From: a candidate division WS1 bacterium
Lineage (GTDB): Bacteria; Armatimonadota; Zipacnadia; Zipacnadales; UBA11051
Assembly: GCA_012518355.1 (NCBI GenBank)
Contig: JAAYSP010000072.1
Location: 7,644 to 71,643, forward strand
Reading direction: 5' to 3'
DNA: 64,000 bases
A model generated the notes under the pieces. The model was given only the letters and a program-made list of their open reading frames with translations, was not told where the DNA came from and did not search any database. Of the stretch, positions 8,650 to 46,797 are shown in pieces. Every line of letters begins with the position of its first letter. The stretch's first letter is position 1. A program made the translations under genes and the position numbers.

Positions 8650-8701
8650 TTGTCTTTCCTCCTGGATACGCCGGGGCCTTTTCGGCTGCGATGTCACCGC
8701 T

Positions 8702-9018: not shown

Positions 9019-9024
9019 GGGCTC

Positions 9025-9053: not shown

Positions 9054-9070
9054 CACCACGATCACCCCAG

Positions 9071-9250: not shown

Positions 9251-9262
9251 AAGCGGGTCCAG

Positions 9263-11989: not shown

Positions 11990-12176
11990 GTTCGATCGTC
12001 CTCTCACTTGTGCTCATACGGATGAAATGCTTTAATTGCTATAGTCATGGTCTTAAGTCTTGGCCTACAGTCTATGATGTTCTACACATGCACGTCCAGT
12101 CCTAGTTTTGCGGTTATAGTCTACCGAGATACCATGAATTCGAGATGGATGTCTTCCTTTGCGGATGTGATTGCCT

Positions 12177-22286: not shown

Positions 22287-22358
22287 GTATCTTCCTCCGC
22301 ATGACATATAGGCAATATGACAACATTGGCGGTTAGTGTTCCGCCATTTTTGCGGCAA

Positions 22359-23327: not shown

Positions 23328-23400
23328 TCAATCCTTGCTTAGGCCGGGCCGACGTATAGTAGCGCCCGAGTTCGGAATCCGTATGGTAGACTACAAACGA

Positions 23401-26028
23401 CTATCTCTTCTGGGTGCGAATACGCTCAGTCAACTGTTCGGCACGGGCTGCTTTTGCCGGGTCAGGTTTCTCCTGCTCGTGCATATGCTTGATGGCCTTC
23501 AGCGACCTATCGTCCCCTATACACTGCATGCTGATAGCCAGCCACATGCGGTAGTCGGCATCCTGCGTGCGATTACGAGTGTCTAGCACTGCCTCGGTAG
23601 CCTGACGCCCGATGCCCCCAATGGTGGCGGCTATCCACGGCTTGAGGCTATCGGATACTTTATCGAGTTCTTCCATCAGTGTTTTGACGGGGCCACTGCC
23701 CATCATAGACAGCGCGATCGCAGCCTGCATGCGTATATCTTCACCGCTACCAGGCTCTGTCAGGATTTCCACGAGCAACTTGCCGGCAGGTGACAGTTCG
23801 GATGAGACTTGCTGCTCCATTTCTTCCTGACTGGATTTCATCCCAATAAGCGCCACTGACTGGGCGGCACCGGCAGCAAATTCTCCGCCGGCCTTCAGGA
23901 GAGCACCTAGGACAGGGATCCCCTCTGCGTGTCCGATCCGGCCGAGACCTCGAATTGCATAGTGACGAACCGATGGCGAGGCTGTCTCGTCGCCGGCGGC
24001 AGCAGTCAACAGCTGGGCGACACTCCCCCGGATCCGGTCGTCAAATTGTGTTTCTCGGACTCCACCGATAGCAGTCTCGGCTGTCTGAACGGTCGATTCG
24101 CTTTCGAACACCAAAGATATCGCAGCGCGGTACTTCAAGTCGGTATCGGCACTGTCGAGCAATTTGGCTAGCTCATCGCGTGGGTGTCCAGACCGCCAGT
24201 TGGCGAGGGCATCCATTGCCATATCTCGAACTGCAGGCGAGGATGACTGCAGGGCCTTGACAAGCAACTCTACACCATCGGCGGAGGCGATCTTGCTGAC
24301 TGCCTTGACGACAGCTATGGCCAGGCCAGGCTGCACGTCGGTGTAGACAGATTTGAGAGTGGTGATGGCTTGTGGGTTACGTGTGTGTCCAAGGGCTGCC
24401 ACTGCAGCGACACGTGTAGGCACCGGTTCAGCGCTATTGCCTGCAAGCTCAGTCAACTGCGCGAGTGCATCCGTACCTAGCGCGCCGAGAGCGATAGCGG
24501 CCCAGTCAGCTTTGGTCGGATTAGTCGGCGCCTGCTTGAGCGCGTTGATCAGAGCGGGAATTGCCGGCTTACCAATTCGCACCAGTGCCTGTTCCGCCAT
24601 ATGAGCGACACGTTCATCGGTACTGCCCAAAGCTTCAGTGAGCACCGGGACCGCAGCTGGACCACACTTGGCCAGTGCATCACGGGCGGCGTAGTACACC
24701 CGCCAGTCACCATCGTGCAGAGCGCGGGCTAACGGCGCAGCGATTACGGCGGCATGGGAAGAGAGGTTGTGTCCGCTTTGTGCTCTCAGCGCTTCTGCTG
24801 CTGCCCGGCGTACTGCCGCGTCAGCGGCTCCCAGTGCCTGAGCAAGGGGCGGGACAGGGGTGGAGCCGGCAACGTTGGAAAGGGCGCGGATTGCTAGTAG
24901 TTGCGCTTCGCTCTGTCCGCTAGCGATTACTGTAGCAAGAGCCGGTACGGCAGCAGGGCCAAGTCTCTCAAGAGCGCTGACCAACTGGCTGGATATACCA
25001 GCGCGGCTATGGAGCAGGGCATGGGTCAGCGGACCAGCAGCGGCTGGATCGCCCAGTCTACCCAGTGCTTCGGCCACAGCGCCACGGACCTCGGAGTGCT
25101 GCCCGGTATCCTGCAAAGTGGCAATCAGCGGGCCAGCAGCTCCGTTTACACGGCCCACTTCGCCGAGACGTCCCAGGCTGAGTGCAGCCTGACGTCGGAC
25201 GGCATAGCTTCCGTCATTGCGAAGCCGGTCCAGCAACGGTGGCAACACCTGTAGCGCGCCCTCCTCACCTATCGGAGAAGCAACAGTCTGGTCGGCTATA
25301 ACGCCTAATAGAGACGTCCCCACGCCTCGAATGTCGGTGTTTGGCGATGTCAGCAGTTCAGTGATGATGGCAGGAATGGCTATGGCATTCATGGCCCTGA
25401 GAGCTGCTTGAGCGGCGGCCCGCTCACGCAAGTAGGCGTCAGCGTCCTGATCACCGCTTGGGCCTGTCTTCTGGATCACTGTGATGACGGCAGCCCGCGC
25501 AGGCTCCCCAATACCTCCAAGAATCGCACTTGCGCCAGCCCTGGCGAAATCATCCCACGCCGACAGGACGGGGAGAAGATAAGGAACCGCCGGCTCTCCG
25601 ATTGCGATCAGCACGGGATTCACTCCAGCACGGGTGTTCGCATCCTTGTCCTTGAGCGCTTCGATCAAGGTAAAGATGGCCGAATTGCCGGCTTGTGTGA
25701 GAATTTCGGTGATGCGCGCTTGAACCGGGGCATCAACGAATTTGAAAACCGTGAGCAGTTGATGCCATGCCTGGGGCGTGCTTATCTGTGCCGCGGCGGC
25801 TATCGCACGATCTTGCACCCAACGGGGCTGGTCCTTGATTGCCTCTGCTAGCGTGCGACTACGTATAAGCTCATCTACGGCACGAACCTGCTGGGTGGGC
25901 GTGCCGGTGGCCAGTTGTTCCTGTAGCCTGGCCATCCGTTGGCTTCGGCCGACCCCCCACACGAGAAGACAGGCGAGGGCGCCGATGATGATTACCCAGT
26001 TAATCTGCCGCCGGGTGCTTTCGTCCAC
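23401..26028 (-). CDS. large HEAT-repeat (PBS lyase-like) protein with N-terminal TM anchor (about 875 aa, more than 20 repeats)
   Basis: Pervasive AxxALGxxG repeats; GTG start at 26028 placed 9 nt after a GAGGAG SD (the ORF-track TTG at 26037 abuts the SD). Confidence 0.75.
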   Translation of the reverse strand: MDESTRRQINWVIIIGALACLLVWGVGRSQRMARLQEQLATGTPTQQVRAVDELIRSRTLAEAIKDQPRWVQDRAIAAAAQISTPQAWHQLLTVFKFVDAPVQARITEILTQAGNSAIFTLIEALKDKDANTRAGVNPVLIAIGEPAVPYLLPVLSAWDDFARAGASAILGGIGEPARAAVITVIQKTGPSGDQDADAYLRERAAAQAALRAMNAIAIPAIITELLTSPNTDIRGVGTSLLGVIADQTVASPIGEEGALQVLPPLLDRLRNDGSYAVRRQAALSLGRLGEVGRVNGAAGPLIATLQDTGQHSEVRGAVAEALGRLGDPAAAGPLTHALLHSRAGISSQLVSALERLGPAAVPALATVIASGQSEAQLLAIRALSNVAGSTPVPPLAQALGAADAAVRRAAAEALRAQSGHNLSSHAAVIAAPLARALHDGDWRVYYAARDALAKCGPAAVPVLTEALGSTDERVAHMAEQALVRIGKPAIPALINALKQAPTNPTKADWAAIALGALGTDALAQLTELAGNSAEPVPTRVAAVAALGHTRNPQAITTLKSVYTDVQPGLAIAVVKAVSKIASADGVELLVKALQSSSPAVRDMAMDALANWRSGHPRDELAKLLDSADTDLKYRAAISLVFESESTVQTAETAIGGVRETQFDDRIRGSVAQLLTAAAGDETASPSVRHYAIRGLGRIGHAEGIPVLGALLKAGGEFAAGAAQSVALIGMKSSQEEMEQQVSSELSPAGKLLVEILTEPGSGEDIRMQAAIALSMMGSGPVKTLMEELDKVSDSLKPWIAATIGGIGRQATEAVLDTRNRTQDADYRMWLAISMQCIGDDRSLKAIKHMHEQEKPDPAKAARAEQLTERIRTQKR

Positions 26029-27335
26029 TGATGTCAACTCCTCAGAAGCAGCGGAGCGCCCCGGCCTATCCGGGGCCTCCCAATAGTGCCGATCATAGAC
26101 TTACGCGTGAACTGGATTACTCTTCCAGCCACCTAATCGTGCAATTCCGCAACGACGCGCCGGAATCCTTCTCCGTTTTGCGCCGTATACCTTCTCCTGA
26201 ATCAGAAAATCCCAAAAAGCAAAAACAGTAGATCACCTGACCGTCTCACCGGCTATCACGGACTGTCGAAGGCTGGCGCCATTATATGCTCTCACGGGCC
26301 TGCTGACAAGAGTGTCTGTCATAATTGCCAGGGTGGAACTGGCGATGAGGCATCTCCAGACCGGGTCACAAGTGAGCCAGTAGCGTTCTTCACAACAATC
26401 AACGCTATCCGACAATGCTCTGCTAACACGCCATCACCTGATGGTGTCGACGGACGCCCGAGCACTGTTTCTTCCAACACTGCTTCAACGCAGAATTCCC
26501 AAAAGCAGCGCGCCTGGCGCGCCTCACGGGCCATTTGTTGGCGAGTAGCGTAAAATCTACTGCATCGCGAAAGGGTGCTTTGCTGATGCCATCGCAAAAT
26601 CTGCGCATATACTGCTACAGCTACTGCGTATATAGGATATACGGTAGATATATCGTAGGCACCAGCCGGGGGATAGCCACGAAGCGCCTTACCGGGGCGC
26701 AATGACGGGAGCCCACTATCCGGAGGCTGCGCCGATCATCTGCCTCTGTGAGAATACAACTGAAAATAGTTGGCAGTAGTGGCTAATGCTTACTTGGATA
26801 GCGCTATTTGTGTTACAATTGAGCGACAGTTCGGGCACTTGTGTCCTACAGCACGGATCGTCTTTGTGCTGTCCATGCTCGGCAAGATGCTTACCGCCGG
26901 CCCGGCTCCTGCTACGGCCTAGACTCTGGGCGATTGTACTGAACTCTATAGTGTTCTTGCACAGGTCGCCAAAACCATAGAGAGTGTGGGGCAATCGTAG
27001 CTAGAACCGGGCCTGTGTTGTGAAGTAGTGTGCTAGATATGTTGAGTGCCCAACAGAATAAGCCAGCACCAATACGCCTGACCTGATGGCCATCAGCAGC
27101 CTGTTCGACAGCAGATGTTATCGCTGTTACCAGTTACCAGGAGCACGCAGCAACTTTTTCTGATGACAGGTGAAGTCGGATCTGAACCGACAGCAATTGG
27201 CAATTGTACCTGGTGCGATAACTGGTTGGGCAACTGATTGATTTATTTATGAGTATCGACACTGAACAGCATACACGCCACAAAACCCGCACGAGTTCCA
27301 TTCACCGGCGCAACCGCCTGATGAGGGAGCACAGC

Positions 27336-28355
27336 ATGAACCATCACCGGCCGTTGACCGACCGCGCATCGTCATACACAAGACAGGCATTTGCCATTGC
27401 CATACTGTTGGTGGTGAGCGCATTGACTGGCTGTCGACCCACGGATGCTGTAGGCCGTTCACGCTCCGATGCTGACCACAATGACAGCACTAAAGGGGAC
27501 GCATTCAAAGCTCTAGGCCTACAACAGCTTGAAGCGGGCAACTACAATGATGCCTATGTTGCCTTCAAACACGCCGCAGCGTTGACAGGTGATGATTACG
27601 ATATTGCGTGGGGAATGGCTCAGGTCAACTCGAAGCTCGGTGATGACATCGAAGCATTAGACTGGATCAACCAGGCCTTGTCCCTACAGCCGGAGTCTGC
27701 CGAAGTGTTGGAGTTGAAGGGTCGGACGCTGTTGCGACTGGCCCGTTTCACGGAAGCGATAGGCGTACTGGAACGCACCGTACAGACACATCCAGACAAC
27801 ACAGTGGCGTGGCTAAATCTATCGGCGGCCTATGATGCTACCAAGCAGCCCGATAAATCCATGGACGCTGCCCGCTCTGCGATCACGAGTGCACCGGATG
27901 CACCTATCCCCTATTTTGCCATGGGCGACATATACCTGCAACGGGAGCAACTTGCCGAGGCCGAAAAGCAGTATCGTCTTGCGCTCGAAAAAGATTCCGC
28001 CCACGCGGCATCATATCTGCGACTGGCAGCACTGTACATCCGGCAAAACAAGGATCTTGACCAGGCCCGTACATGGGCAATTAAATCTGAAGAGCTCGAT
28101 CCGGGCGATGGCAGCGCCGCATCTGCCGCCGCATGGGTTCTCTTTTTGCAGGATAGGAAGGTCGAAGCCGTCAAGGAAATGGCCAAGACCGCCGAAGCGC
28201 ACCCTCAGAATTACCACATTTGGATGCGGCTGGGACACATTTTGGACGACATGGGCGATAAAGAAATGGCGCAACAGGCCTTTGACACAGGAGCCAGGTT
28301 TGCCCCGCGCGGGGTTAGAAGTGCGGTAGCCGATGACAAACAAGACAGCCAATAG
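27336..28355 (+). CDS. TPR-repeat lipoprotein
   Basis: Lipobox LLVVSALTGC; multiple TPR units; ATG at 27336 after a GAGGGAG SD. Confidence 0.7.
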   Translation: MNHHRPLTDRASSYTRQAFAIAILLVVSALTGCRPTDAVGRSRSDADHNDSTKGDAFKALGLQQLEAGNYNDAYVAFKHAAALTGDDYDIAWGMAQVNSKLGDDIEALDWINQALSLQPESAEVLELKGRTLLRLARFTEAIGVLERTVQTHPDNTVAWLNLSAAYDATKQPDKSMDAARSAITSAPDAPIPYFAMGDIYLQREQLAEAEKQYRLALEKDSAHAASYLRLAALYIRQNKDLDQARTWAIKSEELDPGDGSAASAAAWVLFLQDRKVEAVKEMAKTAEAHPQNYHIWMRLGHILDDMGDKEMAQQAFDTGARFAPRGVRSAVADDKQDSQ

Positions 28356-28368
28356 AGGAGTAGAGGCG

Positions 28369-29340
28369 ATGAACCTTCGGTATTTGAGCCGATCCGACGT
28401 AGAAGACCTGAATATATCCATGAGCCAAATCATCTCTGTTGTCGAAGAAGGCTTCCGCCTGAAGGGCCTGGGCAAGGTGCAGATGCCACCCAAGATTGCT
28501 GTCAAGTCGCGCGGCCCCGAGAGCTTCCTACACGCCATGCCTGCATACGTCGGTGGCCTGGACATTGCGGCCATCAAATGGGTTGGCGGCAACGATGACA
28601 ACCCCGATCGGGGTTTGCCGACCATCAGCGGTCTTATCGTGCTCAACGACCCTGAGACCATGTTCCCCGTGTGTGTCATGGATGCCATCTGGGTGACTGC
28701 AGTGCGCACCGGAGCAGCCAACGCTGTAGCAATGAAATATCTGGGCCCTGCGCAAGCAAAGACGGTGTCAATTGTCGGTTGTGGCGTGCAGGGCCGGAGC
28801 AATCTGCTGGCGATGGCAACCATTTATCCGGAAATCACTGAAGCACGTTGCTTTGATGTGAATCCAGATGCACTGGAACGCTTCGTCAGAGAAAGCCGAG
28901 ATGCGTACAACTTTCAGATCACGCCCGCTGCAAGTCCTCGGGAGGCTGTTGAGGAGGCTGATGTTGTGGTCACTGCCGGGCCCAGCCCCAAAGAGCCCAC
29001 ACCGTACCTGTCGGAAGAGTGGCTCAAACGCGGTGCTATGGCCGCTCCCGTCGATTACATGGGAGCATGGGAAGGGCCCATGGCATCCAGCGTGGACCGG
29101 CTCATCACCGACGATCATGGCCAGATGGAGTACTATAGAAGCAAAGGCTACTTCCGCGATGTCCCACGCCCCTATGCAGACCTGGGTGAAATAGTCGCCG
29201 GCGTCAAACCGGGTCGCCAGAATCCGGACGAACGGACTATGTCAATTCTGCTGGGCATAGCTCTGGATGATGCAGTCACCGCCAATCTAATCCATCAGCG
29301 GGCCATCGAGGAAAATATCGGGACGCTTCTACCGCTGTAG
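28369..29340 (+). CDS. ornithine cyclodeaminase/mu-crystallin family protein
   Basis: Rossmann GCGVQG motif and OCD-family N-terminal region; GAGGAG SD 8 nt upstream. Confidence 0.8.
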   Translation: MNLRYLSRSDVEDLNISMSQIISVVEEGFRLKGLGKVQMPPKIAVKSRGPESFLHAMPAYVGGLDIAAIKWVGGNDDNPDRGLPTISGLIVLNDPETMFPVCVMDAIWVTAVRTGAANAVAMKYLGPAQAKTVSIVGCGVQGRSNLLAMATIYPEITEARCFDVNPDALERFVRESRDAYNFQITPAASPREAVEEADVVVTAGPSPKEPTPYLSEEWLKRGAMAAPVDYMGAWEGPMASSVDRLITDDHGQMEYYRSKGYFRDVPRPYADLGEIVAGVKPGRQNPDERTMSILLGIALDDAVTANLIHQRAIEENIGTLLPL

Positions 29341-29461
29341 TGTCACGAGCTCTGGGATAAGTTTAGTCTCTGTAGACCCCGGCTTGGATGTGTAGCTGGA
29401 ATGTGTAGCGATTCGGCTGCAGCGCTGCAACGAATGTGCCTAGCAAGGGAGGCCTGACACG

Positions 29462-30832
29462 ATGTGCACAGATGCCCGTGTAAGAATTGCGGAACTCGAA
29501 TTAGAGCTGCAAGAGCGGGATACTCACATGGAAGCGATACGCCGCATAAGTGCGGCGCTGTGCCAGGTCACGAAAGTTGATGAACTGGTCCGCCGCGCTC
29601 TGGACACCTCGCTGCAGGTGGTAAGCGCTGATGCCGGATCCGTAATCCTGTATGATCCGGACAAAGACAAGCTGATATTCGAGTATGTGGTGGGTGGTGC
29701 TGCTGACATCCTCACGGGTACGGAATTGAGCCCCAATCAGGGCATAGCGGGTGCAGTCTTCCAGAGCGGTGAGATTGATGTAAGCGAAGATGTGACCACT
29801 CGCGACAAACATGATCGGGCCGTAGGAGAGAAGGTACACTACGTGACCAAAAACATGGTCACAGTGCCGCTTCTTAGTGCCGGAGGTAAGCGGTTTGGCG
29901 TCATGCAAGTGCTAAACAAAACTGATGGCACGTTCAAAGACAGGGACGTAGCGTTGCTAGACACTCTCGCCTCGCAAATCGCTACTGCGCTGGAGACAGC
30001 TCGACTTCACGAAGAGGCGCGGCTAGCCGAGGTCATACGCTTCATCGGCAACCTCAGCCATGACGTTAAGAACATGATGACACCGGTGCAGACCGCCGCC
30101 GAGACGCTCGAATTGATTGCATCAGACACATGGAGCGATTTCGACACCGCCGTGTCAACGCTGCCGGATCGAGATGAAGTGGCCGACACCATCGAAGGGT
30201 TGCGACAACTGCTCCCCGAGATGACCGAGATGATGAAAAACGGCTCTGAGGCCGTGCAGGGCCGGATGGCAGAGGTCTCAGCCGCTGTAAAAGGCATGGT
30301 CACCGAGCCTGATTTCCATCTCGAACACATCCGCACCGTAGTAGATCAGGTAGTGCCGATGTTGGCGGTGGTGGCCAAAAAAGAGCATATCACCATCCAA
30401 ACCGACATTCCGGACGACATAAAACCGGCGATAATGGACGCCAAGCAGATGTATAACGCAGTGTACAACCTGGTGAACAACGCCCTACAGGCCTGTCCTC
30501 CTGATGCCACCATCACGGTGCGTTGCCGCAGCGAGATAAATGGCAGCTTCCCTGATGGCGGTTATCTGGAGGTAGCTGTGCAGGACACCGGCGAGGGGAT
30601 GCCCGAGGAAGTCCGCCACAAGCTTTTCACTGATGACGCCATCAGTACCAAACCGATGGGGACCGGACTTGGGACGAAAATCGTGAAAAACGTGGTAGAT
30701 GTCCACGGAGGGACCGTCTGGGTCGAAAGCACTCTGGGACAGGGCACCACCATCACGCTCCGCATTCCCATCGAAGGCTCCTCTGAAGCGCGTGATCGCA
30801 TGGCAAAGAACAGACAGCAGGAGGAGCAGTGA
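29462..30832 (+). CDS. cytoplasmic GAF-domain sensor histidine kinase (no cognate response regulator adjacent)
   Basis: GAF region; H-box LSHDVKNMMTP; HATPase_c N, G1 and G2 boxes (NLVNNALQA, DTGEGM, GTGLGT). Confidence 0.85.
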   Translation: MCTDARVRIAELELELQERDTHMEAIRRISAALCQVTKVDELVRRALDTSLQVVSADAGSVILYDPDKDKLIFEYVVGGAADILTGTELSPNQGIAGAVFQSGEIDVSEDVTTRDKHDRAVGEKVHYVTKNMVTVPLLSAGGKRFGVMQVLNKTDGTFKDRDVALLDTLASQIATALETARLHEEARLAEVIRFIGNLSHDVKNMMTPVQTAAETLELIASDTWSDFDTAVSTLPDRDEVADTIEGLRQLLPEMTEMMKNGSEAVQGRMAEVSAAVKGMVTEPDFHLEHIRTVVDQVVPMLAVVAKKEHITIQTDIPDDIKPAIMDAKQMYNAVYNLVNNALQACPPDATITVRCRSEINGSFPDGGYLEVAVQDTGEGMPEEVRHKLFTDDAISTKPMGTGLGTKIVKNVVDVHGGTVWVESTLGQGTTITLRIPIEGSSEARDRMAKNRQQEEQ

Positions 30833-30836
30833 GCGG

Positions 30837-32006
30837 ATGAATTTCGTCTTCTATAACCCAACACGCCTCGTGTTCGGCGATGGGAGATTTCATGAATTGA
30901 GCGAACTGGCCGCCGGCCTGGGCAACCGCGCACTGCTGGTGACGGGGCGTTCGGCCATGCAGAAAACCGGGCATCTGGACAATGCGGTGGAGATGCTTGA
31001 GCAAGCCGGAGCGAGAGTCACCGTGTTCGATCACATACCACCTAACCCCACGCTTGAGGCTATCGAGGACGGCGGACGCCTCGCTCGCGAGACAGACTGT
31101 GATTTCATCGTCGGTCTGGGTGGGGGCAGTGCTATGGACAGCGCCAAGGCCATTGCCGTGGCGGCAACACATGACTGCAACCTGCGCGAATTCCTGCTAC
31201 CCGGAGAAAACGGCGTCAAACGCCAACCTACTGATGACACTTTGCCCGTAATTGCTATCACCTCAACCGCCGGCACCTCTTCCGAACTGACGCCATTCGC
31301 AGTTATCACCATGTCTGACACCTGCGAGAAGTCAGCCATGGGTGGTCCGGCACTGTATCCGCATGTGGCCATCGCGGATCCGCAACTGACCCGGAGTCTG
31401 CCGCCACGGATTACCGCTTCGACCGGTATGGATGTGATGTGCCATGCTCTGGAAGGCTACGTGTCTACTGTTGCAAACCCGATAACGGACGTGCTGGCAC
31501 TGCATGCAATTGAACTCGTGGCGCTCCATCTCCCCCATGCAGTGGCTGACGGCGGTGATGAAGATGCTCGCCGTGGCATGATGCTGGCCAACTGCCTTGC
31601 CGGATACGTGCTCTCACAAAACGGCACCAACCTGATGCACGCACTGGAGCACCCCATGAGTGGCCGATACCCTGACTTGCCTCATGGGGAGGGCCTCTGT
31701 GCCGTACTGTCTGCCTGGGCAGAGCTTATGGCAGAGCGTCAGCCCGACCGCCTTGCAGCGGTGGCTCGGCGGATAGGAGTACAGGAGGCTGACGATGTAC
31801 GGGCGGCTGCTCACACTGCGGAAGCGTTGAGCCAACTGCTCGCACAGGTGGGGATGGATTTGTGCCTGAACCAGTTGGGCGTCGAACCACACATGCTGGA
31901 CACGCTCGCAGATGACGCCCTGCGGTACATGCACCATGCACTTGCTAAAACACCGGGGCAGGTGACGCGCGAGCATCTCACCGACATACTGCAAGCGAGT
32001 TACTAG
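30837..32006 (+). CDS. iron-containing alcohol dehydrogenase family protein
   Basis: GGGSAMDSAKAIA motif and metal-binding His cluster; start 4 nt after the HK stop with a GGAGGAG SD. Confidence 0.85.
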   Translation: MNFVFYNPTRLVFGDGRFHELSELAAGLGNRALLVTGRSAMQKTGHLDNAVEMLEQAGARVTVFDHIPPNPTLEAIEDGGRLARETDCDFIVGLGGGSAMDSAKAIAVAATHDCNLREFLLPGENGVKRQPTDDTLPVIAITSTAGTSSELTPFAVITMSDTCEKSAMGGPALYPHVAIADPQLTRSLPPRITASTGMDVMCHALEGYVSTVANPITDVLALHAIELVALHLPHAVADGGDEDARRGMMLANCLAGYVLSQNGTNLMHALEHPMSGRYPDLPHGEGLCAVLSAWAELMAERQPDRLAAVARRIGVQEADDVRAAAHTAEALSQLLAQVGMDLCLNQLGVEPHMLDTLADDALRYMHHALAKTPGQVTREHLTDILQASY

Positions 32007-32028: not shown

Positions 32029-32868
32029 ATGACTTCCGCTCCACTGCAACGCTGGACAATCGCCAGGCCTGCTGAGCTCTCCGGATTGGGCGTGCGCACC
32101 GGCAGACACATCACAGTGCGTTTTTTGCCCGCAGAGGCCTACAGTGGTATCACTGTAACGCGCACAGACCTGGATATGACGTGGCCTGTGGATCTAGATC
32201 ATGCCCTTGATGTGCCCAATAGCACCTGCATCGGCGACCACAGCGGCATGGTCGCTTTCGTCGAGCATGTGTTAGCTGCATTGTGGGCTGCAGCCATCAG
32301 CGATGCGCAAATCGTGGTGGATGGGCCAGAGATACCGCTGCTCGACGGCAGTGCGCTACCGTGGTATGGTGCGGTGACTGCCGCCGGGCGCAGGCAACTC
32401 GACGGCGAGTGGACACCGTTGAAGTTAACCGAACCGGTTTTTGTGCTGGGAGACAACACAGCGCTGATCGCGTTGCCAGCGGAACGGCTCCGGCTCAGCT
32501 ATGCACTGCTGCACAGTCATCACATGATAGGCCATCAGTTCGCACACTTTGACGCCGAATGTGACAGCTTCGCCGATGACCTGGCACCGGCTCGAACTTT
32601 TGCCACCGGAGCGGAGCTGGAGCAACTGCAGCAGGCGGGGTTGATAGTTGCAGGCAGTGAAGAGAACTGCCTGATCGTCTATGATGACCGATATTCGTCT
32701 GCGCTTTTTGCAGGCAATGCCATGGCCCGGCATAAATTGGTGGACATGGCCGGAGACTTGTACTTGCTCGGGCGTCGCGTACATGCCCATGTGCTGGGAT
32801 ACCGGACAGGGCACACGGACAATCGTGCTCTGGCCCACCGCATCGCCGAGCAACAGCAGGCGCCCTGA
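32029..32868 (+). CDS. lpxC: LpxC-family deacetylase (UDP-3-O-acyl-N-acetylglucosamine deacetylase-like)
   Basis: Catalytic EH (FVEHVLAAL), HKxxD zinc site (ARHKLVDMAGDL) and the C-terminal His (GYRTGHTDN) are all conserved relative to E. coli LpxC. Confidence 0.75.
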   Translation: MTSAPLQRWTIARPAELSGLGVRTGRHITVRFLPAEAYSGITVTRTDLDMTWPVDLDHALDVPNSTCIGDHSGMVAFVEHVLAALWAAAISDAQIVVDGPEIPLLDGSALPWYGAVTAAGRRQLDGEWTPLKLTEPVFVLGDNTALIALPAERLRLSYALLHSHHMIGHQFAHFDAECDSFADDLAPARTFATGAELEQLQQAGLIVAGSEENCLIVYDDRYSSALFAGNAMARHKLVDMAGDLYLLGRRVHAHVLGYRTGHTDNRALAHRIAEQQQAP

Positions 32869-32931
32869 CGAGAGATTTCACGCAAACTGCACTCAATTTG
32901 AGCAGCATAACACAGCACTGGAGGACAAATT

Positions 32932-34194
32932 ATGGCTGAAGAACTAGCGATTAATGGTGGGCCCAGGACTGCCGAGGAAAGCTTTCCGAGTACCGGAAAT
33001 GCCAGTGGCAGAGATCTGGGTGAAGAGGAAATCGCTCTTGTAAGCGAAGTCATCCGCAGTGGCAGGATGTTCCGTTACAGTGGGAGCATGGTGGGGCAAT
33101 TCGAAAAAGAGTACGCTGAATATCTTGGCATCGAGTATGTTTTGGCCGTCACCTCTGGCACCGCCTCACTTCACACTGCAGTGGCGGCACTGGAATTGAA
33201 TCCCGGCGACGAGATCATCACCAGCCCCATCAGCGACATGGGTACCTACATCGGCATTGTGCAGTCTTGCTGCATCCCGATCTTCGCCGATTGCGACCCT
33301 CTGACGCTGAACATGAATCCGGAGTCTATCGAGAAACAGATCACGGACCGCACCCGCGCCATACTCGTGGTTCATCTATTCGGGCAGCCTTGCCGGATGG
33401 ACGAGATCATGGATATCGCCAAGCGTCATGACCTCTACGTCATAGAAGACTGCGCTCAGGCTCACGGGGCCACCTATGATGGGCAACAGGTCGGCACTTT
33501 CGGCGATATAGGCTGCTTCTCACTGCAGCAGAGCAAACAGATTACAGCCGGTGATGGCGGCATCATCGCGACTGCCAGGGAAGAGTTCCATGCGCGCGCA
33601 CGAGATTTCCATGACAAGTACTACGACCGCACGGGGCGCAGCCAGGACCGCAGTGGCGTGGCCCGCATCGGCATCAACTATCGCATGAACGAAGTCACCG
33701 GAGCGGTGGCGCTGGCTCAAACCCGCAAACTTAAGAGTATCCTCGAGCGGCGACGGGCATCCGCAGAACGGCTCGTCGAGTTGATCGAGCAGATCGACGG
33801 CATCAATGGCCCACATATATACCCCAATACCACTGACCACTCCTGGTGGCGCTTCACATTCAGCATAGACCAGGAAGCACTCGGTGTGGACAATGAAACC
33901 TTCGCCAAAGCCATCCGCGCTGAGGGCTTGCCATTCGGACTGGGCTATGTGGGCAATCTGATGGTCGGTACCAAATGCCTCGTCGACCACGTAGCATATG
34001 GCGACTCGAAGTTCCCCTGGGAACCTCCGTACGGACGCGATCCGGAGTATGATGAAGCCGACTATCCCGGTGCAGCATGGGGCGAGTCGAACCTGTTTAC
34101 TCATGCCTGGACAGAGGGCCACACGGTAGAGCACGCCGAGCTGATTGCACAGGGGCTCCGAAAGGTCGCCGACTACTACCGCTCTAAAAAATAG
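32932..34194 (+). CDS. DegT/DnrJ/EryC1/StrS-family PLP-dependent sugar aminotransferase
   Basis: PLP lysine motif SLQQSKQITAGDGG; family architecture. Confidence 0.85.
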   Translation: MAEELAINGGPRTAEESFPSTGNASGRDLGEEEIALVSEVIRSGRMFRYSGSMVGQFEKEYAEYLGIEYVLAVTSGTASLHTAVAALELNPGDEIITSPISDMGTYIGIVQSCCIPIFADCDPLTLNMNPESIEKQITDRTRAILVVHLFGQPCRMDEIMDIAKRHDLYVIEDCAQAHGATYDGQQVGTFGDIGCFSLQQSKQITAGDGGIIATAREEFHARARDFHDKYYDRTGRSQDRSGVARIGINYRMNEVTGAVALAQTRKLKSILERRRASAERLVELIEQIDGINGPHIYPNTTDHSWWRFTFSIDQEALGVDNETFAKAIRAEGLPFGLGYVGNLMVGTKCLVDHVAYGDSKFPWEPPYGRDPEYDEADYPGAAWGESNLFTHAWTEGHTVEHAELIAQGLRKVADYYRSKK

Positions 34195-34373
34195 TTTCGT
34201 TTTGTCTATACGGTATGCGCATCTGTGTCCTGCAGGCGTGGCGCTCATAGCCACGCCTGCAGAGGCGTGTGCCATTTGAAGGCATTTTCGGGATGACGAC
34301 GAAATATATATCTAGGGCACTAATACAGAGCACTAGTGCAAGCGATTATCAGAAATTGTAGAGGAAATCAACT

Positions 34374-35522
34374 ATGAGCAGGCGCATCGGCATCGGTCTG
34401 GTAGGATTTGGCTTTATCGGCAAGGTACACACGCACGCATACCAGACTCTGCCGCTATTTTTTGACCCTTGCCCGGTTCACGCCGAACTAGTCGGAGTGT
34501 GTACTAGCAGGCAAGAGACGGCCGATCGGGCAGCCCAGATCGGCCGGTACAGCTTCGGGACCACCGACTTCGACCAACTACTCGCCCGTGATGATATAGA
34601 CGTCATAGACATCTGCACACCCAATCATCTTCATCTAGACCAGATTCTGGCGGCGCTGGAGGCAGGTAAGCATGTTTACTGCGACAAACCGCTGACCGTG
34701 GATTTGTCGTCCGCCCAACAAATTGCAGCTGCTGCAAAACAGCGCCCAAATTTGTGCCATGGGATGGCTTTTCACTGCCGTTTCGTCCCCGCCTGTATGA
34801 AAGCCCGGCAACTCATCGCAGACGGCTTCCTAGGACGACTGTACCATTACCGAGCCACATACTACCACGCTGGTTATACGGATCCTGCCAGGCCTATCTC
34901 CTGGCGGCTGCAAAAGGAGTTCGGCGGAGGCGCTCTGAGTGACCTCGGCAGTCACATCATAGACATGATGATGTATCTGTTGGGCGACATAAGCCGTGTG
35001 CGAGGCTCGATCGAAACGTTTATCACTGAGCGGCCAGTGGCGCCCGGGGCATCGGAGACCGTGCCTGTGGAGGTAGATGACTACGTCTGTCTGGAGGCGG
35101 TCATGGGACGCGGTGGGCGTGGGTTGATAGAGGCCTCCCGCTTCGCCACCGGAACCCAGGACGGCTTCACGTTCGAGATATATGGCGAGCGCGGCTCTCT
35201 AAAATTCGACATGATGGACCCGAATTTCTTGTATGCCTATGACATGCGCGATCCTGAGGGAGAGCTTGGTGGCGAACGTGGCTACAAGCAAATTGAGTGT
35301 GTTCAACGCTACCCCAAACCTTCAGCGTTACCTTCACCTAAACTCCCAGTGGGTTGGATGCGATTTCACACACAGAGTATTTTCGACTTCCTACACGCTC
35401 TAAGCGAGAACCGACTTGGAACTGCGACACTGTTTGACGGTGTTAGAACTCAAGCAGTGGACGAAGCGGTCACGCGTAGCGTGGACACGGGCGATTGGGC
35501 CGAGGTGCACTACCCATGCTGA
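34374..35522 (+). CDS. Gfo/Idh/MocA-family NAD(P)-dependent oxidoreductase
   Basis: N-terminal Rossmann GLVGFGFIGKVH and the C-terminal alpha/beta domain. Confidence 0.85.
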   Translation: MSRRIGIGLVGFGFIGKVHTHAYQTLPLFFDPCPVHAELVGVCTSRQETADRAAQIGRYSFGTTDFDQLLARDDIDVIDICTPNHLHLDQILAALEAGKHVYCDKPLTVDLSSAQQIAAAAKQRPNLCHGMAFHCRFVPACMKARQLIADGFLGRLYHYRATYYHAGYTDPARPISWRLQKEFGGGALSDLGSHIIDMMMYLLGDISRVRGSIETFITERPVAPGASETVPVEVDDYVCLEAVMGRGGRGLIEASRFATGTQDGFTFEIYGERGSLKFDMMDPNFLYAYDMRDPEGELGGERGYKQIECVQRYPKPSALPSPKLPVGWMRFHTQSIFDFLHALSENRLGTATLFDGVRTQAVDEAVTRSVDTGDWAEVHYPC

Positions 35523-35619
35523 CCGCACGCGGCTCTTCGTGCAGTGTCAGTGGATCCGCAGACCCTAACCCATCAAACCCATCAGAGGATACTGCAGAGA
35601 TCATCCGGGGCGATACTTG

Positions 35620-36402
35620 ATGAGAGACGTAGCTTCCGAATCCGATAACAGAGGCATCACGATAGACAGAGTCGGTATACGCGACTTGCATTTACCTGTC
35701 CGCATAATGGAAAAGGACGGAGGGTACGCGCGCCTTCTGGGCCAAATTGAGGCCAGTGTCAAGTTGCCGCATGTCAGGCGAGGCACGCATATGAGCCGCT
35801 TTGTCGAGATCCTTTCGGCATGGAGCAAGCGGTCGGTCTCCATGACGGAAATGGAAGCCACTTTGTGGCACATGCTTGACGAATTCTCAGCCCCTGCCGC
35901 CCGTGTGCTGCTCAAATTTAAGTACTTCCTGCCCAAACATGCTCCAGCTTCCGGGCAAAATAGCCAACTGGATTACGATTGCAGCTTCGAAGGCACTGTC
36001 GCGGACGGTCAATTCCGCTTCCGGCTTGGCGTAGCGGTACCAATACTAACTCTATGTCCATGCTCCAAGGAGATCTCCGATCGTGGGGCGCACAGTCAGA
36101 GAGCCGTGCTTTCAGTGCAAGTCAACTGTCGGTCAGGTATCATACTCTGGCTGGAAGACCTCATACCTCTTTTGGAGCAGCAAGGAAGTGCAGAGATCTA
36201 CCCTCTACTCAAACGCACAGACGAAAAAGCGATAACTGAATCCGCGTATGACAATCCAAAGTTTGTTGAAGACGTGGTTCGTGACACCATCATCGCACTG
36301 AAGGGCCACCCCGCCGTGCTAGGTGCATCCGCCCAGTGTGACAGCTTTGAATCAATTCACAATCATGTGGCTTACGCTTATGCAGAACTCGGAGACCTGT
36401 AA
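35620..36402 (+). CDS. folE2: GTP cyclohydrolase FolE2/MptA family
   Basis: TLCPCSKEIS...GAHSQR active-site region. Confidence 0.75.
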   Translation: MRDVASESDNRGITIDRVGIRDLHLPVRIMEKDGGYARLLGQIEASVKLPHVRRGTHMSRFVEILSAWSKRSVSMTEMEATLWHMLDEFSAPAARVLLKFKYFLPKHAPASGQNSQLDYDCSFEGTVADGQFRFRLGVAVPILTLCPCSKEISDRGAHSQRAVLSVQVNCRSGIILWLEDLIPLLEQQGSAEIYPLLKRTDEKAITESAYDNPKFVEDVVRDTIIALKGHPAVLGASAQCDSFESIHNHVAYAYAELGDL

Positions 36403-37410
36403 ATGGTCGAACTGATCATCGGTTTGGTGTTGGGTACACTCGGCTTGTCAGCGTTCTGGCTGGTGCTTCGAACACTGAGACGTGCAGGCAAACCTGCCCC
36501 TGTCGCACCACCACCTGTAGAAGATGAAGAGATCGAACCGATTGACCCTGAAGGCGAAATCGGTACCGACGGGCTTGTATACATGTTTGCCGGCAAGTTT
36601 GTCAGGCCGGTCGGCCGCCGTTCGCTGGGTTCAATTCCGCGAGATCGGGCGTTCGATCTGGCTAGCGGCGATGAACTCGACCCGTTGGATTTTGCTATGC
36701 AGATGTTATATGCGGTACTCACCGACTTGCTTTCGGGCGAGTATATCAAGCTACGTCTGGTAGAGCGTGAGGCCACTTTCATGCCTCCTTTCCCCCACAA
36801 AAACTGGGAGATGGAGCTTCGACAGGTGAAAGCCTTCCGCTCCAGTCCACTGTGTGATGGCCTGAACATAGCTTTCGAGATGATCTACAAGAAGCGGATG
36901 AGAAAAACCCAGACGGACAATCCGCAGTCGCTGGCTGAGAGTACTCCGGAAGCCCTCTGGGTCCCACTCGATGAACTGGTAGAGAACGCGCTGAAAGCTA
37001 TGCGCCAGGAGATGCGCTTCTGGGACCGGGGCTGCATCTATTCGGACCTACGAAATTACGTAGGTATCGGTCTGACCGCCCAGCGCTACGTCCTGGCACC
37101 AGCGCAGGACACGTGGCTTGACAGGCTGCGGCGCAAAGGGCCACTTCTCAATCCTCACGCGATCAGCAAACACCGATTGGATGAAGCAGCCGAGGCGCTG
37201 CTGCGCCGCATCGAGACCTTCCACACCCGTTTTGGCTCTCCTGAGGCCAGAGAAGATCCTCGCTGGCCGGCAGGTGACGTCAGTCCCGCTCTTTTGCAGC
37301 CGCGCGTGCCGCTTCATGAACTGCCGCTCGATGACTGTTTGCGCCTGAGTGTCTACGAGACTCTGGTAGCCATCCGCCAGTTGGAGCCAAGTGGAGAGGC
37401 AGGGATTTAG
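36403..37410 (+). CDS. hypothetical membrane-anchored protein
   Basis: ATG immediately follows the folE2 stop (TAAATG); N-terminal TM helix. Confidence 0.55.
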   Translation: MVELIIGLVLGTLGLSAFWLVLRTLRRAGKPAPVAPPPVEDEEIEPIDPEGEIGTDGLVYMFAGKFVRPVGRRSLGSIPRDRAFDLASGDELDPLDFAMQMLYAVLTDLLSGEYIKLRLVEREATFMPPFPHKNWEMELRQVKAFRSSPLCDGLNIAFEMIYKKRMRKTQTDNPQSLAESTPEALWVPLDELVENALKAMRQEMRFWDRGCIYSDLRNYVGIGLTAQRYVLAPAQDTWLDRLRRKGPLLNPHAISKHRLDEAAEALLRRIETFHTRFGSPEAREDPRWPAGDVSPALLQPRVPLHELPLDDCLRLSVYETLVAIRQLEPSGEAGI

Positions 37411-37411
37411 C

Positions 37412-37744
37412 ATGAAGTGGGCTGAAGTGGTCGAGTGGATAGCCATCATGCTGATCATCGTTTTGTGGTGGCCACGCATATTTCTCGGTTACGGCTACAA
37501 CCATGATCCGATGTGGTACCATATACTCACCCACTATGTATCGCCCCTGGTGCTGATTGTCATCGTCCTGCGGCGTTGGCGTCGTATGCAGGAAGGCTTT
37601 GATTACAGTGAGGAAATGCTGAAACATATGCCACGGGCAGGTTCCGAAAGCCGCCACAATAGTGACGCCAAATCCAAACATGATGGCCCCCCGTCACTTC
37701 CTTTTGCACCACCGTCTGATGAAGAAGACGGCGACCGATCATAG
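37412..37744 (+). CDS. hypothetical small membrane protein (two TM, acidic tail)
   Basis: ATG one nt after the upstream stop. Confidence 0.45.
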   Translation: MKWAEVVEWIAIMLIIVLWWPRIFLGYGYNHDPMWYHILTHYVSPLVLIVIVLRRWRRMQEGFDYSEEMLKHMPRAGSESRHNSDAKSKHDGPPSLPFAPPSDEEDGDRS

Positions 37745-37913
37745 GCCGAAGAGCCCCCTAACCCCTGGCCGCGCCGCCACCGACGTCGACTCAGAGTGCC
37801 TCATCTGCGCAGTAAGCCGGGACCTTTTCGGTTTCCAACTGCTTCTGTGACATCATAGAATCTAAGCCACCGCCGTCTGCACTAAGCGTTGGGCCGGAAC
37901 AGTGAGAATAGCT

Positions 37914-38768
37914 ATGCCAGAGTTGCCTGAAGTCGAGACTATACGTCGAGGGCTGCAAGATCAGGTGGTCGGCGACACCATCGTGTGCGCACACCTGCGC
38001 CGCCAGGACATAATCCTGACACCGCCGGAAGAATTTCTATCCGCACTGGAGGACAGGCGGATAATCGGCACTGGCCGGCATGGGAAGGCACTGTGGCTGG
38101 CTCTGGAAGACCATGTGGGCCTGGGCATCCATCTGCGTATGAGCGGGCAGTTCAAACTTGTTCCTTCAGATAGCCTGACGCCCAAACACACCCACCTGGT
38201 GCTTGAGCTTGCCGCGAATGGCAGGCTGATCTTCGTGGACCCACGCCGTTTTGGCCGACTGGAGCTGCTCGACACTCGGCGACTGGACCAGGCCGTGCTT
38301 CTGCGGCGGCAGGGCCCCGATGCCCTGTCCGAACAGTTGACCAGAGAGCACCTCCTCGAAGCAGCTTCCCATCACAGTATCGCGATCAAGCAGTTCCTGC
38401 TGGACCAGTCACACGTGGCAGGCATCGGGAACATCTACGCCTGCGAAATTCTCCATCTGTGTCGGCTGCACCCGGACACGCCTGCCAACCGTGTCACCGC
38501 TAACGAAATGGCTCGTCTGCTGGAAGCTACACGTAGCGTGTTGACCGCGGCGGTGCAGGCTGGCGGTACCACTCTGGCCGACGCCCAGTACCAGACGCTG
38601 AACGGCAAATCTGGCGAGTACCAACACCACGCTGCCGTCTATGCGCGCGAAGACGAACCCTGTGTCCGGCGCGATTGCCGAGGCCGAATTCGCAGGTACA
38701 GACAGGCGGGCCGAAGTACCTACCTGTGTCCTGTCTGCCAGGCTTCCGGTAGGGGTCGCAAGAAGTAG
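37914..38768 (+). CDS. mutM: formamidopyrimidine-DNA glycosylase (Fpg/Nei family)
   Basis: MPELPEVE N-terminus (Pro2 nucleophile), H2TH region and C-terminal zinc finger CxxC...CxxC. Confidence 0.85.
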   Translation: MPELPEVETIRRGLQDQVVGDTIVCAHLRRQDIILTPPEEFLSALEDRRIIGTGRHGKALWLALEDHVGLGIHLRMSGQFKLVPSDSLTPKHTHLVLELAANGRLIFVDPRRFGRLELLDTRRLDQAVLLRRQGPDALSEQLTREHLLEAASHHSIAIKQFLLDQSHVAGIGNIYACEILHLCRLHPDTPANRVTANEMARLLEATRSVLTAAVQAGGTTLADAQYQTLNGKSGEYQHHAAVYAREDEPCVRRDCRGRIRRYRQAGRSTYLCPVCQASGRGRKK

Positions 38769-45869: not shown

Positions 45870-45962
45870 GTGGGCGTGCTCACGTGTAGTACTTATCATC
45901 CAGCTACTGTTCACTGGCCGTTACGTTCGCGCCGTCAGAGTCTGGGCAGCAATTCGCCATGG
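45870..45962. repeat. direct repeat copy 2; its reverse strand encodes the C-terminus and stop of the ECF T component
   Basis: Read directly in sequence. Confidence 0.8.
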
Positions 45963-46735: not shown

Positions 46736-46797
46736 ACGTATTCCTTTCAATCGCTCCAGACGGCACCAAACAACACGGCAATCAATCCCAGGTCTCG

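What the first reader, a model, noticed from the sequence alone, without database searches (positions are those of the whole stretch)
32029..36402. LpxC-family deacetylase clustered with a GnnA/GnnB- or WbpB/WbpE-like oxidoreductase plus aminotransferase pair and FolE2
An LpxC homolog with every catalytic and zinc residue conserved sits next to a DegT-family aminotransferase and a Gfo/Idh/MocA oxidoreductase. That pair is the two-enzyme module that converts a UDP-HexNAc to its 3-amino derivative (GnnA/GnnB for GlcN3N-type lipid A; WbpB/WbpE for O-antigen sugars). Without lpxA, lpxD or lpxB nearby, this is either a dispersed lipid-A (2,3-diamino-glucose backbone) pathway in a diderm or a non-lipid-A diamino-sugar pathway using an LpxC-like deacetylase. 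If the host is a monoderm lineage (the T-box and RecD2 hint that way), an intact LpxC would be unexpected. An Fe-ADH, a GAF histidine kinase without a partner regulator, FolE2 and two coupled hypothetical membrane proteins complete the same-strand run.
Basis: partly seen in the sequence, partly recalled or inferred. Interest (0 to 1): 0.55.

Follow-up and report, generated by a model that had tools for sequence, protein, structure and literature searches.

The report
Stand-alone lpxC in a diderm Armatimonadota
This is an ordinary lipid A deacetylase gene (lpxC) of an uncultured outer-membrane-bearing Armatimonadota bacterium from a biogas reactor, sitting away from the other lipid A genes; the neighbouring aminotransferase and oxidoreductase are probably just neighbours, not a special diamino-sugar module.

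Summary

The interpretation mostly fails.
- **Host:** it is Armatimonadota, class UBA5377 ('Ca. Zipacnadia'), not a monoderm.
- **Rest of the pathway:** a published relative, MAG Meg22_1012_Bin_300, carries the whole syntenic block. It has lpxA, lpxB, lpxD, lpxK, lpxL, kdtA, kdsA/B and lptB/F elsewhere.
- **Copy number:** that MAG has only one CE11/LpxC call, and it is the syntenic one.
- **Catalysis:** all zinc and catalytic residues are invariant in 56 of 56 clade members.
- **Oxidoreductase:** its closest characterised relatives are levoglucosan and scyllo-inositol/L-glucose dehydrogenases. None of the top 60 PDB matches is labelled WbpB, WlbA or GnnA.
- **Aminotransferase:** it is no closer to WbpE than to many other DegT enzymes.
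- **Linkage:** the LpxC-DegT-Gfo order holds only in family-level relatives. Two relatives lack Gfo, more distant clade members have unrelated neighbours, and DegT orthologues elsewhere stand alone.

This is a relocated, moderately divergent housekeeping lpxC. Interest is low.

The parts
32029..32868 (+). lpxC: UDP-3-O-acyl-N-acetylglucosamine deacetylase, 279 aa. A stand-alone, moderately divergent form typical of Armatimonadota class UBA5377.
   Evidence: PF03331 230.9 bits; TIGR00325 190.2 bits against a cut-off of 187.25. End-to-end alignment to Yersinia and E. coli LpxC structures 3NZK and 4MDT, E 3e-36. Catalytic and zinc residues invariant in 56 of 56 clade members.
32932..34194 (+). 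DegT/DnrJ/EryC1-family PLP aminotransferase, 420 aa, substrate unknown. Lies 63 nt downstream of lpxC and is probably co-transcribed, but not shown to work with it.
   Evidence: PF01041 287 bits. Best PDB matches are 8GYH 197 bits, perosamine synthetase and BtrR about 170 bits; WbpE only 117 bits. It is 77-82% identical in relatives. Orthologues at 54-59% identity stand alone.
34230..34262 (+). GC-rich hairpin with a 13-bp stem and 7-nt loop in the 179-nt DegT-Gfo spacer. Possibly a transcript boundary.
   Evidence: Sequence read. Fold of 34195-34300 gives -47.5 kcal/mol, z = -4.3, and 0 of 200 shuffles fold as well. There is no T-run, so the terminator function is inferred.
34374..35522 (+). 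Gfo/Idh/MocA oxidoreductase, 382 aa, of the levoglucosan / scyllo-inositol / L-glucose dehydrogenase subfamily. Likely a separate transcription unit.
   Evidence: Pfam domains. NF052479 levoglucosan dehydrogenase 262 bits, below its 650-bit cut-off; UDP-GlcNAc 3-dehydrogenase model 76 bits against 450. PDB 4H3V 253 bits, 6A3F 222 bits, 5YA8 162 bits; no match labelled WbpB or WlbA in the top 60. Absent from this position in L013 and L015.
35617..36402 (+). folE2: GTP cyclohydrolase IB (TTG start). A housekeeping gene unrelated to lipid A.
   Evidence: NF010200 250 bits against a cut-off of 215, aligned over residues 4-257 of the 261-aa form.
30837..32006 (+). Iron-containing alcohol dehydrogenase, 389 aa. 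It ends 22 nt before lpxC. This is the most persistently linked upstream neighbour.
   Evidence: Pfam Fe-ADH and ADH_Fe_C. The gene call starts at this position in L001. Kept next to LpxC in L007-L011, L014-L017, L020 and L021.
29462..30832 (+). GAF-domain sensor histidine kinase, 456 aa, with no adjacent response regulator.
   Evidence: GAF plus HATPase_c domains. Kept upstream of Fe-ADH and LpxC in the same loci.

Best explanation
The gene at 32029-32868 is the single housekeeping lpxC of an uncultured, outer-membrane-bearing Armatimonadota bacterium (class UBA5377 / 'Ca. Zipacnadia', family near UBA11051) from anaerobic-digester metagenomes.

It would remove the N-acetyl group from UDP-3-O-acyl-GlcNAc by the usual zinc-dependent mechanism. 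[quoted passage not shown] The remaining Raetz-pathway genes lie elsewhere in the genome. In this lineage lpxC has left the ancestral lpxC-fabZ-lpxA-lpxB cluster and diverged somewhat.

The DegT aminotransferase, the Gfo/Idh/MocA dehydrogenase, FolE2 and the two small membrane proteins are neighbours by descent within one family-level group. They are not a lipid A or diamino-sugar module.

Shown: family membership, residue conservation, host phylum, the limits of the synteny, and the rest of the pathway plus a single LpxC call in a syntenic relative. Inferred: enzymatic activity, single copy in the window organism itself, and no functional coupling with the neighbours.
For: - **Family and residues:**
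- **Host:** all 16 genome loci with related LpxC are Armatimonadota, Armatimonadia or Ca. Zipacnadia MAGs. The window matches biogas-fermenter contigs.
- **Phylum makes LPS:** Armatimonadetes have LpxA-D (PMC5007114). A canonical lpxC-fabZ-lpxA-lpxB-PEMT-msbA-kdtA-lpxK cluster occurs in another Armatimonadota MAG.
- **Rest of the pathway in a syntenic relative:** Meg22_1012_Bin_300 (L009) has LpxC at 62% identity and the whole block conserved. It has lpxA, lpxB, lpxD, lpxK, lpxL, kdtA, lptB and lptF each scored 1 (PMC10290634, Supplementary Table 8).
- **Single copy:** its only CE11 (the CAZy family of LpxC) call is scaffold_6465_6, which is the syntenic gene.
- **Relocation:** in AB_3033_Bin_184, CE11 is gene 150 while GT30 and GT19 (kdtA and lpxB) are genes 259 and 262 of the same scaffold. 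That places lpxC about 110 genes from the cluster, with no second CE11.
- **Neighbours vary with distance:**
- **Neighbour subfamilies:** the oxidoreductase and aminotransferase are not of the nucleotide-sugar 3-dehydrogenase / WbpE type.
Against: - I could not search the window organism's own genome for lpxA/B/D/K or for a second LpxC. The evidence comes from a relative that is only 62% identical in LpxC and about 89% complete.
- lpxC itself is not a row in the paper's KEGG table.
- The clade is separate from cluster-embedded LpxC in a simple NJ tree. It scores only 162-207 bits on TIGR00325 against 251-268 bits for canonical LpxC. dbCAN missed it in two MAGs. It carries T instead of F at the E. 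coli F194 position. These points would also fit a paralogue with a shifted substrate.
- One Zipacnadia MAG shows CE11 = 2.
- lpxC and DegT are only 63 nt apart and always adjacent in the closest relatives.
Confidence: 0.8

Rival explanations
1. GlcN3N-type lipid A. DegT, with or without the Gfo oxidoreductase, acts as a GnnB/GnnA analogue and makes UDP-GlcNAc3N, so that this lineage builds a 2,3-diamino-glucose lipid A backbone. LpxC then deacetylates the N-acylated intermediate.
For: - lpxC and DegT are 63 nt apart on the same strand and adjacent in all close relatives.
- A Gfo/Idh/MocA gene follows.
- GnnA and GnnB belong to these two superfamilies (PMC8036547).
- The clade-specific F-to-T change near the acyl-binding passage could reflect an altered substrate.
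Against: - The oxidoreductase is in the free-sugar / cyclitol dehydrogenase subfamily, not the UDP-sugar 3-dehydrogenase one.
- DegT is no closer to WbpE than to perosamine or inosose aminotransferases.
- Gfo is absent in L013 and L015, and a strong hairpin separates it from DegT.
- More distant clade LpxCs lack both neighbours.
- DegT orthologues elsewhere stand alone.
- No GnnA or GnnB sequence was available for a direct comparison.
Confidence: 0.07
2. Repurposed LpxC paralogue. Like the orphan 'lpxC2' reported in some Bacillota, this clade deacetylates something other than the lipid A precursor, as part of a GAF-kinase / Fe-ADH / LpxC (/ DegT) unit.
For: - The clade is monophyletic and separate from cluster-embedded LpxC, including another Armatimonadota LpxC.
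- It has borderline equivalog scores.
- GAF-HK, Fe-ADH and LpxC stay together in relatives down to 42-46% LpxC identity.
- There is a precedent for stand-alone lpxC paralogues (PMC11448272).
Against: - Syntenic or related MAGs with the rest of the pathway show only this one CE11 and no cluster-embedded copy. The pathway would therefore lack its committed step if this were not LpxC.
- Every catalytic, zinc and UDP/acyl-contact residue checked is kept, except one.
- The HK / Fe-ADH linkage disappears in more distant clade members.
Confidence: 0.07
3. DegT and the Gfo dehydrogenase work together, independently of LpxC, on a free sugar or cyclitol. An example would be inositol or a glucoside oxidised to the keto form and then aminated, as in aminocyclitol or kanosamine-type pathways.
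For: - The best characterised relatives of the oxidoreductase are levoglucosan and scyllo-inositol dehydrogenases.
- DegT matches glutamine:scyllo-inosose and 2-deoxy-scyllo-inosose aminotransferases at about 169-171 bits and has their length of about 420 aa.
- Both are strongly conserved, at 72-82% identity.
Against: - The pair is split in L013 and L015.
- DegT orthologues in L031-L033 have no such partner.
- The two genes are separated by a 179-nt spacer containing a hairpin.
- No other pathway genes are nearby.
Confidence: 0.12

Closest known systems
LpxC (UDP-3-O-acyl-N-acetylglucosamine deacetylase; Pfam PF03331, TIGR00325, CAZy CE11) of E. coli, Yersinia, P. aeruginosa and A. aeolicus
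   Same: Full-length two-domain homology. Identical zinc ligands and catalytic residues. Similar length to the A. aeolicus enzyme. Occurs in a lineage that has the rest of the Raetz pathway.
   Different: - About 35-39% identity to canonical LpxC and a borderline equivalog score.
- T instead of F at the E. coli F194 position.
- Not next to fabZ and lpxA.
- No long C-terminal tail of the E. coli type.
Cluster-embedded LpxC of other Armatimonadota (P0098, GCA_012512265.1)
   Same: Same phylum and same family.
   Different: That copy sits in lpxC-fabZ-lpxA-lpxB-msbA-kdtA-lpxK and scores 251 bits on TIGR00325. The window copy is stand-alone and groups in a separate clade.
GnnA/GnnB (Acidithiobacillus ferrooxidans, Campylobacter) and WbpB/WbpE (P. 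aeruginosa)
   Same: Same two superfamilies, Gfo/Idh/MocA and DegT. Same-strand neighbours close to an lpx gene.
   Different: - The oxidoreductase belongs to the levoglucosan / scyllo-inositol dehydrogenase subfamily.
- The aminotransferase is not specifically WbpE-like.
- The pairing is not conserved.
- No direct sequence comparison with GnnA or GnnB was possible.
Orphan 'lpxC2' of some Bacillota (Desulfotomaculum acetoxidans; PMC11448272)
   Same: An LpxC homologue located outside the main LPS cluster.
   Different: In the Bacillota cases the genome lacks the other lpx genes or has a main-cluster copy. Here the relatives have the pathway and only this LpxC.

Membership tests
LpxC (PF03331 / TIGR00325 / CE11) | Full-length homology to the two-domain LpxC fold | tested here: met
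   PF03331 230.9 bits over profile positions 3-267 of 268. 3NZK E 3.4e-36 over residues 7-278 with only small indels.
LpxC (PF03331 / TIGR00325 / CE11) | Zinc ligands (E. coli H79, H238, D242) and catalytic residues (E78, H265, T191, K239, D246) | tested here: met
   Window H80, H235, D239, E79, H262, T190, K236 and D243. All are invariant in 56 of 56 clade members.
LpxC (PF03331 / TIGR00325 / CE11) | Score above NCBI's equivalog cut-off | tested here: met
   190.2 bits against 187.25, so only just. Clade members range from 162 to 207 bits and canonical LpxC from 251 to 268 bits.
LpxC (PF03331 / TIGR00325 / CE11) | The genome encodes the rest of the lipid A pathway (lpxA, lpxD, lpxB, lpxK, waaA) | tested here: inconclusive
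   Met in the syntenic relative Meg22_1012_Bin_300 according to published tables. The window organism's own genome could not be searched.
LpxC (PF03331 / TIGR00325 / CE11) | It is the only LpxC in the genome (orthologue, not an extra paralogue) | tested here: inconclusive
   CE11 = 1 in Bin_300, and that call is the syntenic gene. CE11 = 1 in AB_3033_Bin_184 as well. The MAGs are incomplete, and one MAG shows CE11 = 2.
LpxC (PF03331 / TIGR00325 / CE11) | Deacetylase activity on UDP-3-O-acyl-GlcNAc | not testable with these tools
   Needs an enzyme assay or complementation.
GnnA / WbpB (UDP-HexNAc 3-dehydrogenase) | The closest characterised relatives are nucleotide-sugar 3-dehydrogenases | tested here: not met
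   Best matches are 4H3V, levoglucosan dehydrogenase 6A3F (222 bits) and scyllo-inositol/L-glucose dehydrogenase 5YA8 (162 bits). No match labelled WbpB or WlbA in the top 60. NF040723 scores 76 bits against a 450-bit cut-off.
GnnA / WbpB (UDP-HexNAc 3-dehydrogenase) | Conserved pairing with its aminotransferase | tested here: not met
   Gfo is absent between DegT and FolE2 in L013 and L015. DegT orthologues in L031-L033 lack it.
GnnB / WbpE (UDP-3-keto-HexNAc aminotransferase) | Specific similarity to WbpE or GnnB beyond general DegT-family similarity | tested here: not met
   WbpE scores 117 bits. That compares with 197 bits for 8GYH and 169-186 bits for perosamine, Kdo8N and inosose aminotransferases. 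GnnB itself was not available.
Bacillota-type orphan lpxC2 | An LpxC homologue in a genome lacking the other lpx genes, or additional to a main-cluster lpxC | tested here: not met
   Relatives have lpxA/B/D/K/L and kdtA and no second CE11.

The most novel reading that the evidence does not exclude
[quoted passage not shown] This could mean one of two things. Either lpxC is under a new kind of signal-dependent control, in a lineage without the E. coli-type LapB/FtsH circuit. Or, together with DegT, the unit reflects an altered (for example 3-amino) lipid A precursor, matched by the clade-specific change in the acyl passage.
Probability: 0.1. Interest if true: 0.45.

Novelty: already known. Interest (0 to 1): 0.12.

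Why it matters
It matters little. The result corrects a plausible-looking guilt-by-association inference. In Armatimonadota, adjacency of an lpx gene to members of two very large enzyme superfamilies is weak evidence for a shared pathway.

There is one small practical point. This stand-alone LpxC clade straddles NCBI's equivalog cut-off and is sometimes missed by dbCAN. Automated surveys could therefore wrongly score these diderm lineages as lacking lpxC.

Tried and rejected
1. **Finding lpxA/B/D/K in the window organism itself.**
   - tblastn of a canonical Armatimonadota lpx cluster against the window and all fetched loci found only LpxC and generic ABC ATPases.
   - A protein search with Armatimonadota LpxB and two context look-ups chosen by source fingerprint hit other lineages with canonical clusters, not this organism.
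2. **Exact look-up of the 914-aa protein at 9263-12007.** It found nothing, so that end of the window was annotated with Pfam instead.
3. **LapB-like role for the upstream TPR protein.** Rejected. It has a lipoprotein signal (lipobox LTGC) and no C-terminal rubredoxin-type cysteines.
4. **Identity of PDB 8GYH, the best DegT match.** It could not be traced in the paper library.
5. **Monoderm host.** Rejected from the genome titles and the canonical LPS clusters in the phylum.
6. **The promoter/terminator consensus scan.** It gave nothing useful in the operon: 3 promoter-like sites against 6.2 expected.

Full report
**Observation**

The + strand between 27.2 and 38.8 kb carries a run of genes:
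- a TPR lipoprotein (27249-28355)
- an ornithine-cyclodeaminase/mu-crystallin protein (28333-29340)
- a GAF histidine kinase (29462-30832)
- an Fe-ADH (about 30837-32006)
- LpxC (32029-32868)
- a DegT aminotransferase (32932-34194)
- a Gfo/Idh/MocA oxidoreductase (34374-35522)
- FolE2 (35617-36402)
- two uncharacterised proteins with N-terminal transmembrane helices (36403-37410 and 37391-37744)
- Fpg (37902-38768)

LpxC matches PF03331 end to end at 230.9 bits. It passes NCBI's lpxC equivalog model only narrowly, at 190.2 bits against a cut-off of 187.25. It aligns over residues 7-278 with the Yersinia and E. coli LpxC structures. All zinc ligands and catalytic residues are in place.

**Host**

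The exact LpxC protein occurs on contigs from biogas-fermenter and related metagenomes, including a 130 kb contig. A scan of species-representative genomes with an alignment of the closest homologues returned 16 loci. Every one is from Armatimonadota MAGs labelled Armatimonadia, Armatimonadota or Candidatus Zipacnadia. The Zipacnadia MAG Meg22_1012_Bin_300 (L009) is classified c__UBA5377; f__UBA11051.

Armatimonadetes were reported to possess the four core LPS genes (PMC5007114). Another Armatimonadota MAG carries a textbook lpxC-fabZ-lpxA-lpxB-PEMT-msbA-kdtA-lpxK-heptosyltransferase cluster. The T-box (upstream of a leuA-like gene) and RecD2 therefore do not point to a monoderm. The window's 571-aa YidC, with a long region before the 60KD_IMP domain, also fits a diderm, but that is only a weak hint.

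**Is this the working LpxC or an extra copy?**

No other lpx gene lies within 10 kb of this LpxC type in any locus, nor anywhere in the 64 kb window. I could not search the window organism's whole genome. A published study of this class does give per-MAG tables (PMC10290634).
- Meg22_1012_Bin_300 carries the entire syntenic block, with LpxC at 62% identity. It is scored 1 for each of lpxA, lpxB, lpxD, lpxK, lpxL, kdtA, lptB and lptF.
- Its only CAZy CE11 (LpxC family) call is scaffold_6465_6, which is the syntenic gene itself.
- In AB_3033_Bin_184 the single CE11 is gene 150 of a scaffold whose genes 259 and 262 are GT30 (KdtA) and GT19 (LpxB). The lpxB...kdtA cluster is therefore retained, while lpxC sits about 110 genes away.

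A canonical LpxC would be easy for dbCAN to detect, so these MAGs appear to rely on the stand-alone copy.

**Caveats**
- The MAGs are about 89% complete.
- One MAG shows CE11 = 2.
- dbCAN missed the LpxC of two MAGs that I know carry one (L016 and L018).
- lpxC is not a row in the paper's KEGG table.

**Divergence of the clade**

In a neighbour-joining tree of the 120 best homologues, the 56 stand-alone sequences form one clade. It is separate from cluster-embedded LpxCs, including the Armatimonadota P0098. Clade members score 162-207 bits on TIGR00325, against 251-268 bits for canonical LpxC.

The equivalents of E. coli E78, H79, R190, T191, H238, K239, D242, D246 and H265 are invariant in all 56. 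The one systematic difference I found is T instead of F at the E. coli F194 position, in 49 of 56 members. Within close relatives LpxC is less conserved (53-64%) than DegT (77-82%) or Gfo (71-81%).

I read this as a relocated, faster-evolving orthologue. An old paralogue that replaced the cluster copy cannot be excluded with a simple NJ tree.

**The neighbours**

The oxidoreductase's best characterised relatives are:
- levoglucosan dehydrogenase (6A3F, 222 bits; NF052479, 262 bits, below its cut-off)
- scyllo-inositol/L-glucose dehydrogenase (5YA8, 162 bits)

No match labelled WbpB or WlbA appears among the top 60 PDB matches. The archaeal UDP-GlcNAc 3-dehydrogenase model gives 76 bits against a 450-bit cut-off.

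The aminotransferase's best PDB match is an uncharacterised DegT protein (8GYH, 197 bits). Next come perosamine synthetase, the Kdo8N aminotransferase and inosose aminotransferases, at about 169-173 bits. WbpE scores 117 bits. Neither protein therefore shows the specific affinity expected of GnnA/GnnB or WbpB/WbpE. I had no GnnA or GnnB sequences for a direct test.

**Synteny**

The whole block is kept in the closest relatives (L007-L011, L014). Beyond that it breaks up:
- L013 and L015 lack Gfo between DegT and FolE2.
- L016, L017, L020 and L021 keep only GAF-HK / Fe-ADH / LpxC, mostly with the TPR gene, and have other genes downstream (an aldo-keto reductase in L017).
- Still more distant clade members (L029, L030) have entirely unrelated neighbours.
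- DegT orthologues at 54-59% identity in other genomes have neither a Gfo nor an lpx neighbour.

Within the window, lpxC follows Fe-ADH by 22 nt and DegT follows lpxC by 63 nt. DegT and Gfo are separated by 179 nt containing a 13-bp GC-rich hairpin (z = -4.3). The LpxC-DegT-Gfo arrangement is therefore a family-level inherited gene order, not a conserved module. The most persistent association is with the upstream kinase and Fe-ADH, and it also disappears at greater distance.

**Conclusion**

This is the ordinary committed-step enzyme of lipid A synthesis in a diderm Armatimonadota. It is encoded away from the other lpx genes and is somewhat divergent.
- The GlcN3N (GnnA/GnnB-like) reading and the repurposed-paralogue reading remain possible at low probability, roughly 7% each.
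- A DegT plus Gfo partnership on a free sugar or cyclitol, independent of LpxC, is a separate minor possibility of about 12%.

Homologues are already annotated as LpxC in public records, and LPS genes in this class are published. Novelty and interest are therefore low.

Noticed in passing
window 8729-8999 (-), upstream of 7078-8697 (-): A full-length T-box leader (RF00230, 103.8 bits) precedes a LeuA-like 2-isopropylmalate/citramalate synthase gene (HMGL-like plus LeuA_dimer domains). This is a T-box in an Armatimonadota genome, so it is not a monoderm marker here.
   Followed up: partly
L002 (JGI 3300002898 draft_10007960) 1-9652, compared with window 27000-32006: A contig carries the identical LpxC, DegT and Gfo. 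Upstream it has a truncated Fe-ADH (191 aa, C-terminal domain only) and a different set of genes: Rieske/LigXa oxygenase, ferredoxin reductase, another Gfo/Idh/MocA, MarR and a TRAP transporter. This is either a strain-level rearrangement inside the Fe-ADH gene or a chimeric assembly.
   Followed up: no
window 32029-32868 and clade members P0001-P0056: The stand-alone LpxC clade has T (49 of 56) where other LpxCs have F (53 of 64), at the position of E. coli F194 beside the acyl-chain passage. Its TIGR00325 scores straddle the cut-off (162-207 against 187.25). dbCAN missed it in MAGs AB_3033_Bin_153 and Meg22_1618_Bin_20, so automated surveys may under-call lpxC in this class.
   Followed up: partly
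window 34230-34262 (+): A perfect 13-bp GC-rich stem with a 7-nt loop lies in the DegT-Gfo spacer (region fold -47.5 kcal/mol, z = -4.3). It has no following T-run. It may be a non-canonical terminator or a regulatory hairpin. Conservation in relatives was not checked.
   Followed up: partly
window 35617-37744 (+): FolE2 is directly abutted by a 335-aa protein (stop at 36402, start at 36403) with one N-terminal transmembrane helix, followed by a small two-transmembrane-helix protein of 110-117 aa. Neither has a Pfam or NCBIfam match. The trio is conserved in L007-L010, L014 and L015 (L011 ends inside the 335-aa gene). Function unknown. Public gene calls shorten FolE2 to 231 aa, but the NF010200 alignment supports the 261-aa form with a TTG start.
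   Followed up: partly
window 27249-28355 (+): The TPR protein upstream has a lipoprotein signal with lipobox LTGC. It stays upstream of the kinase / Fe-ADH / LpxC group even in distant relatives, at 29-31% identity. It has no rubredoxin-type C-terminus, so it is not LapB-like.
   Followed up: partly
window 21693-26037 (-): Three consecutive HEAT-repeat proteins (221, 322 and 878 aa) of unknown function. The same genes are present on the source-organism contigs L001 and L003.
   Followed up: no
window 62051-63295 (+): A second Fe-ADH paralogue lies about 30 kb from the one next to lpxC.
   Followed up: no
window 1904-2372 (+): A tight cluster of five tRNA genes: Leu-GAG, Val-CAC, Gly-CCC, Gly-GCC and Cys-GCA.
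   Followed up: no
PMC10290634 Supplementary Table 10, MAG Meg22_1416_Bin_144: One Zipacnadia MAG is scored with two CE11 (LpxC-family) genes, while all others have 0 or 1. This could be a real duplication, a canonical plus a stand-alone pair, or bin contamination.
   Followed up: no
window 46798-49377 (-): A large 859-aa fusion protein combines a QueT-type ECF substrate component with two ABC ATPase domains, next to a CbiQ-type T component (45935-46750).
   Followed up: no
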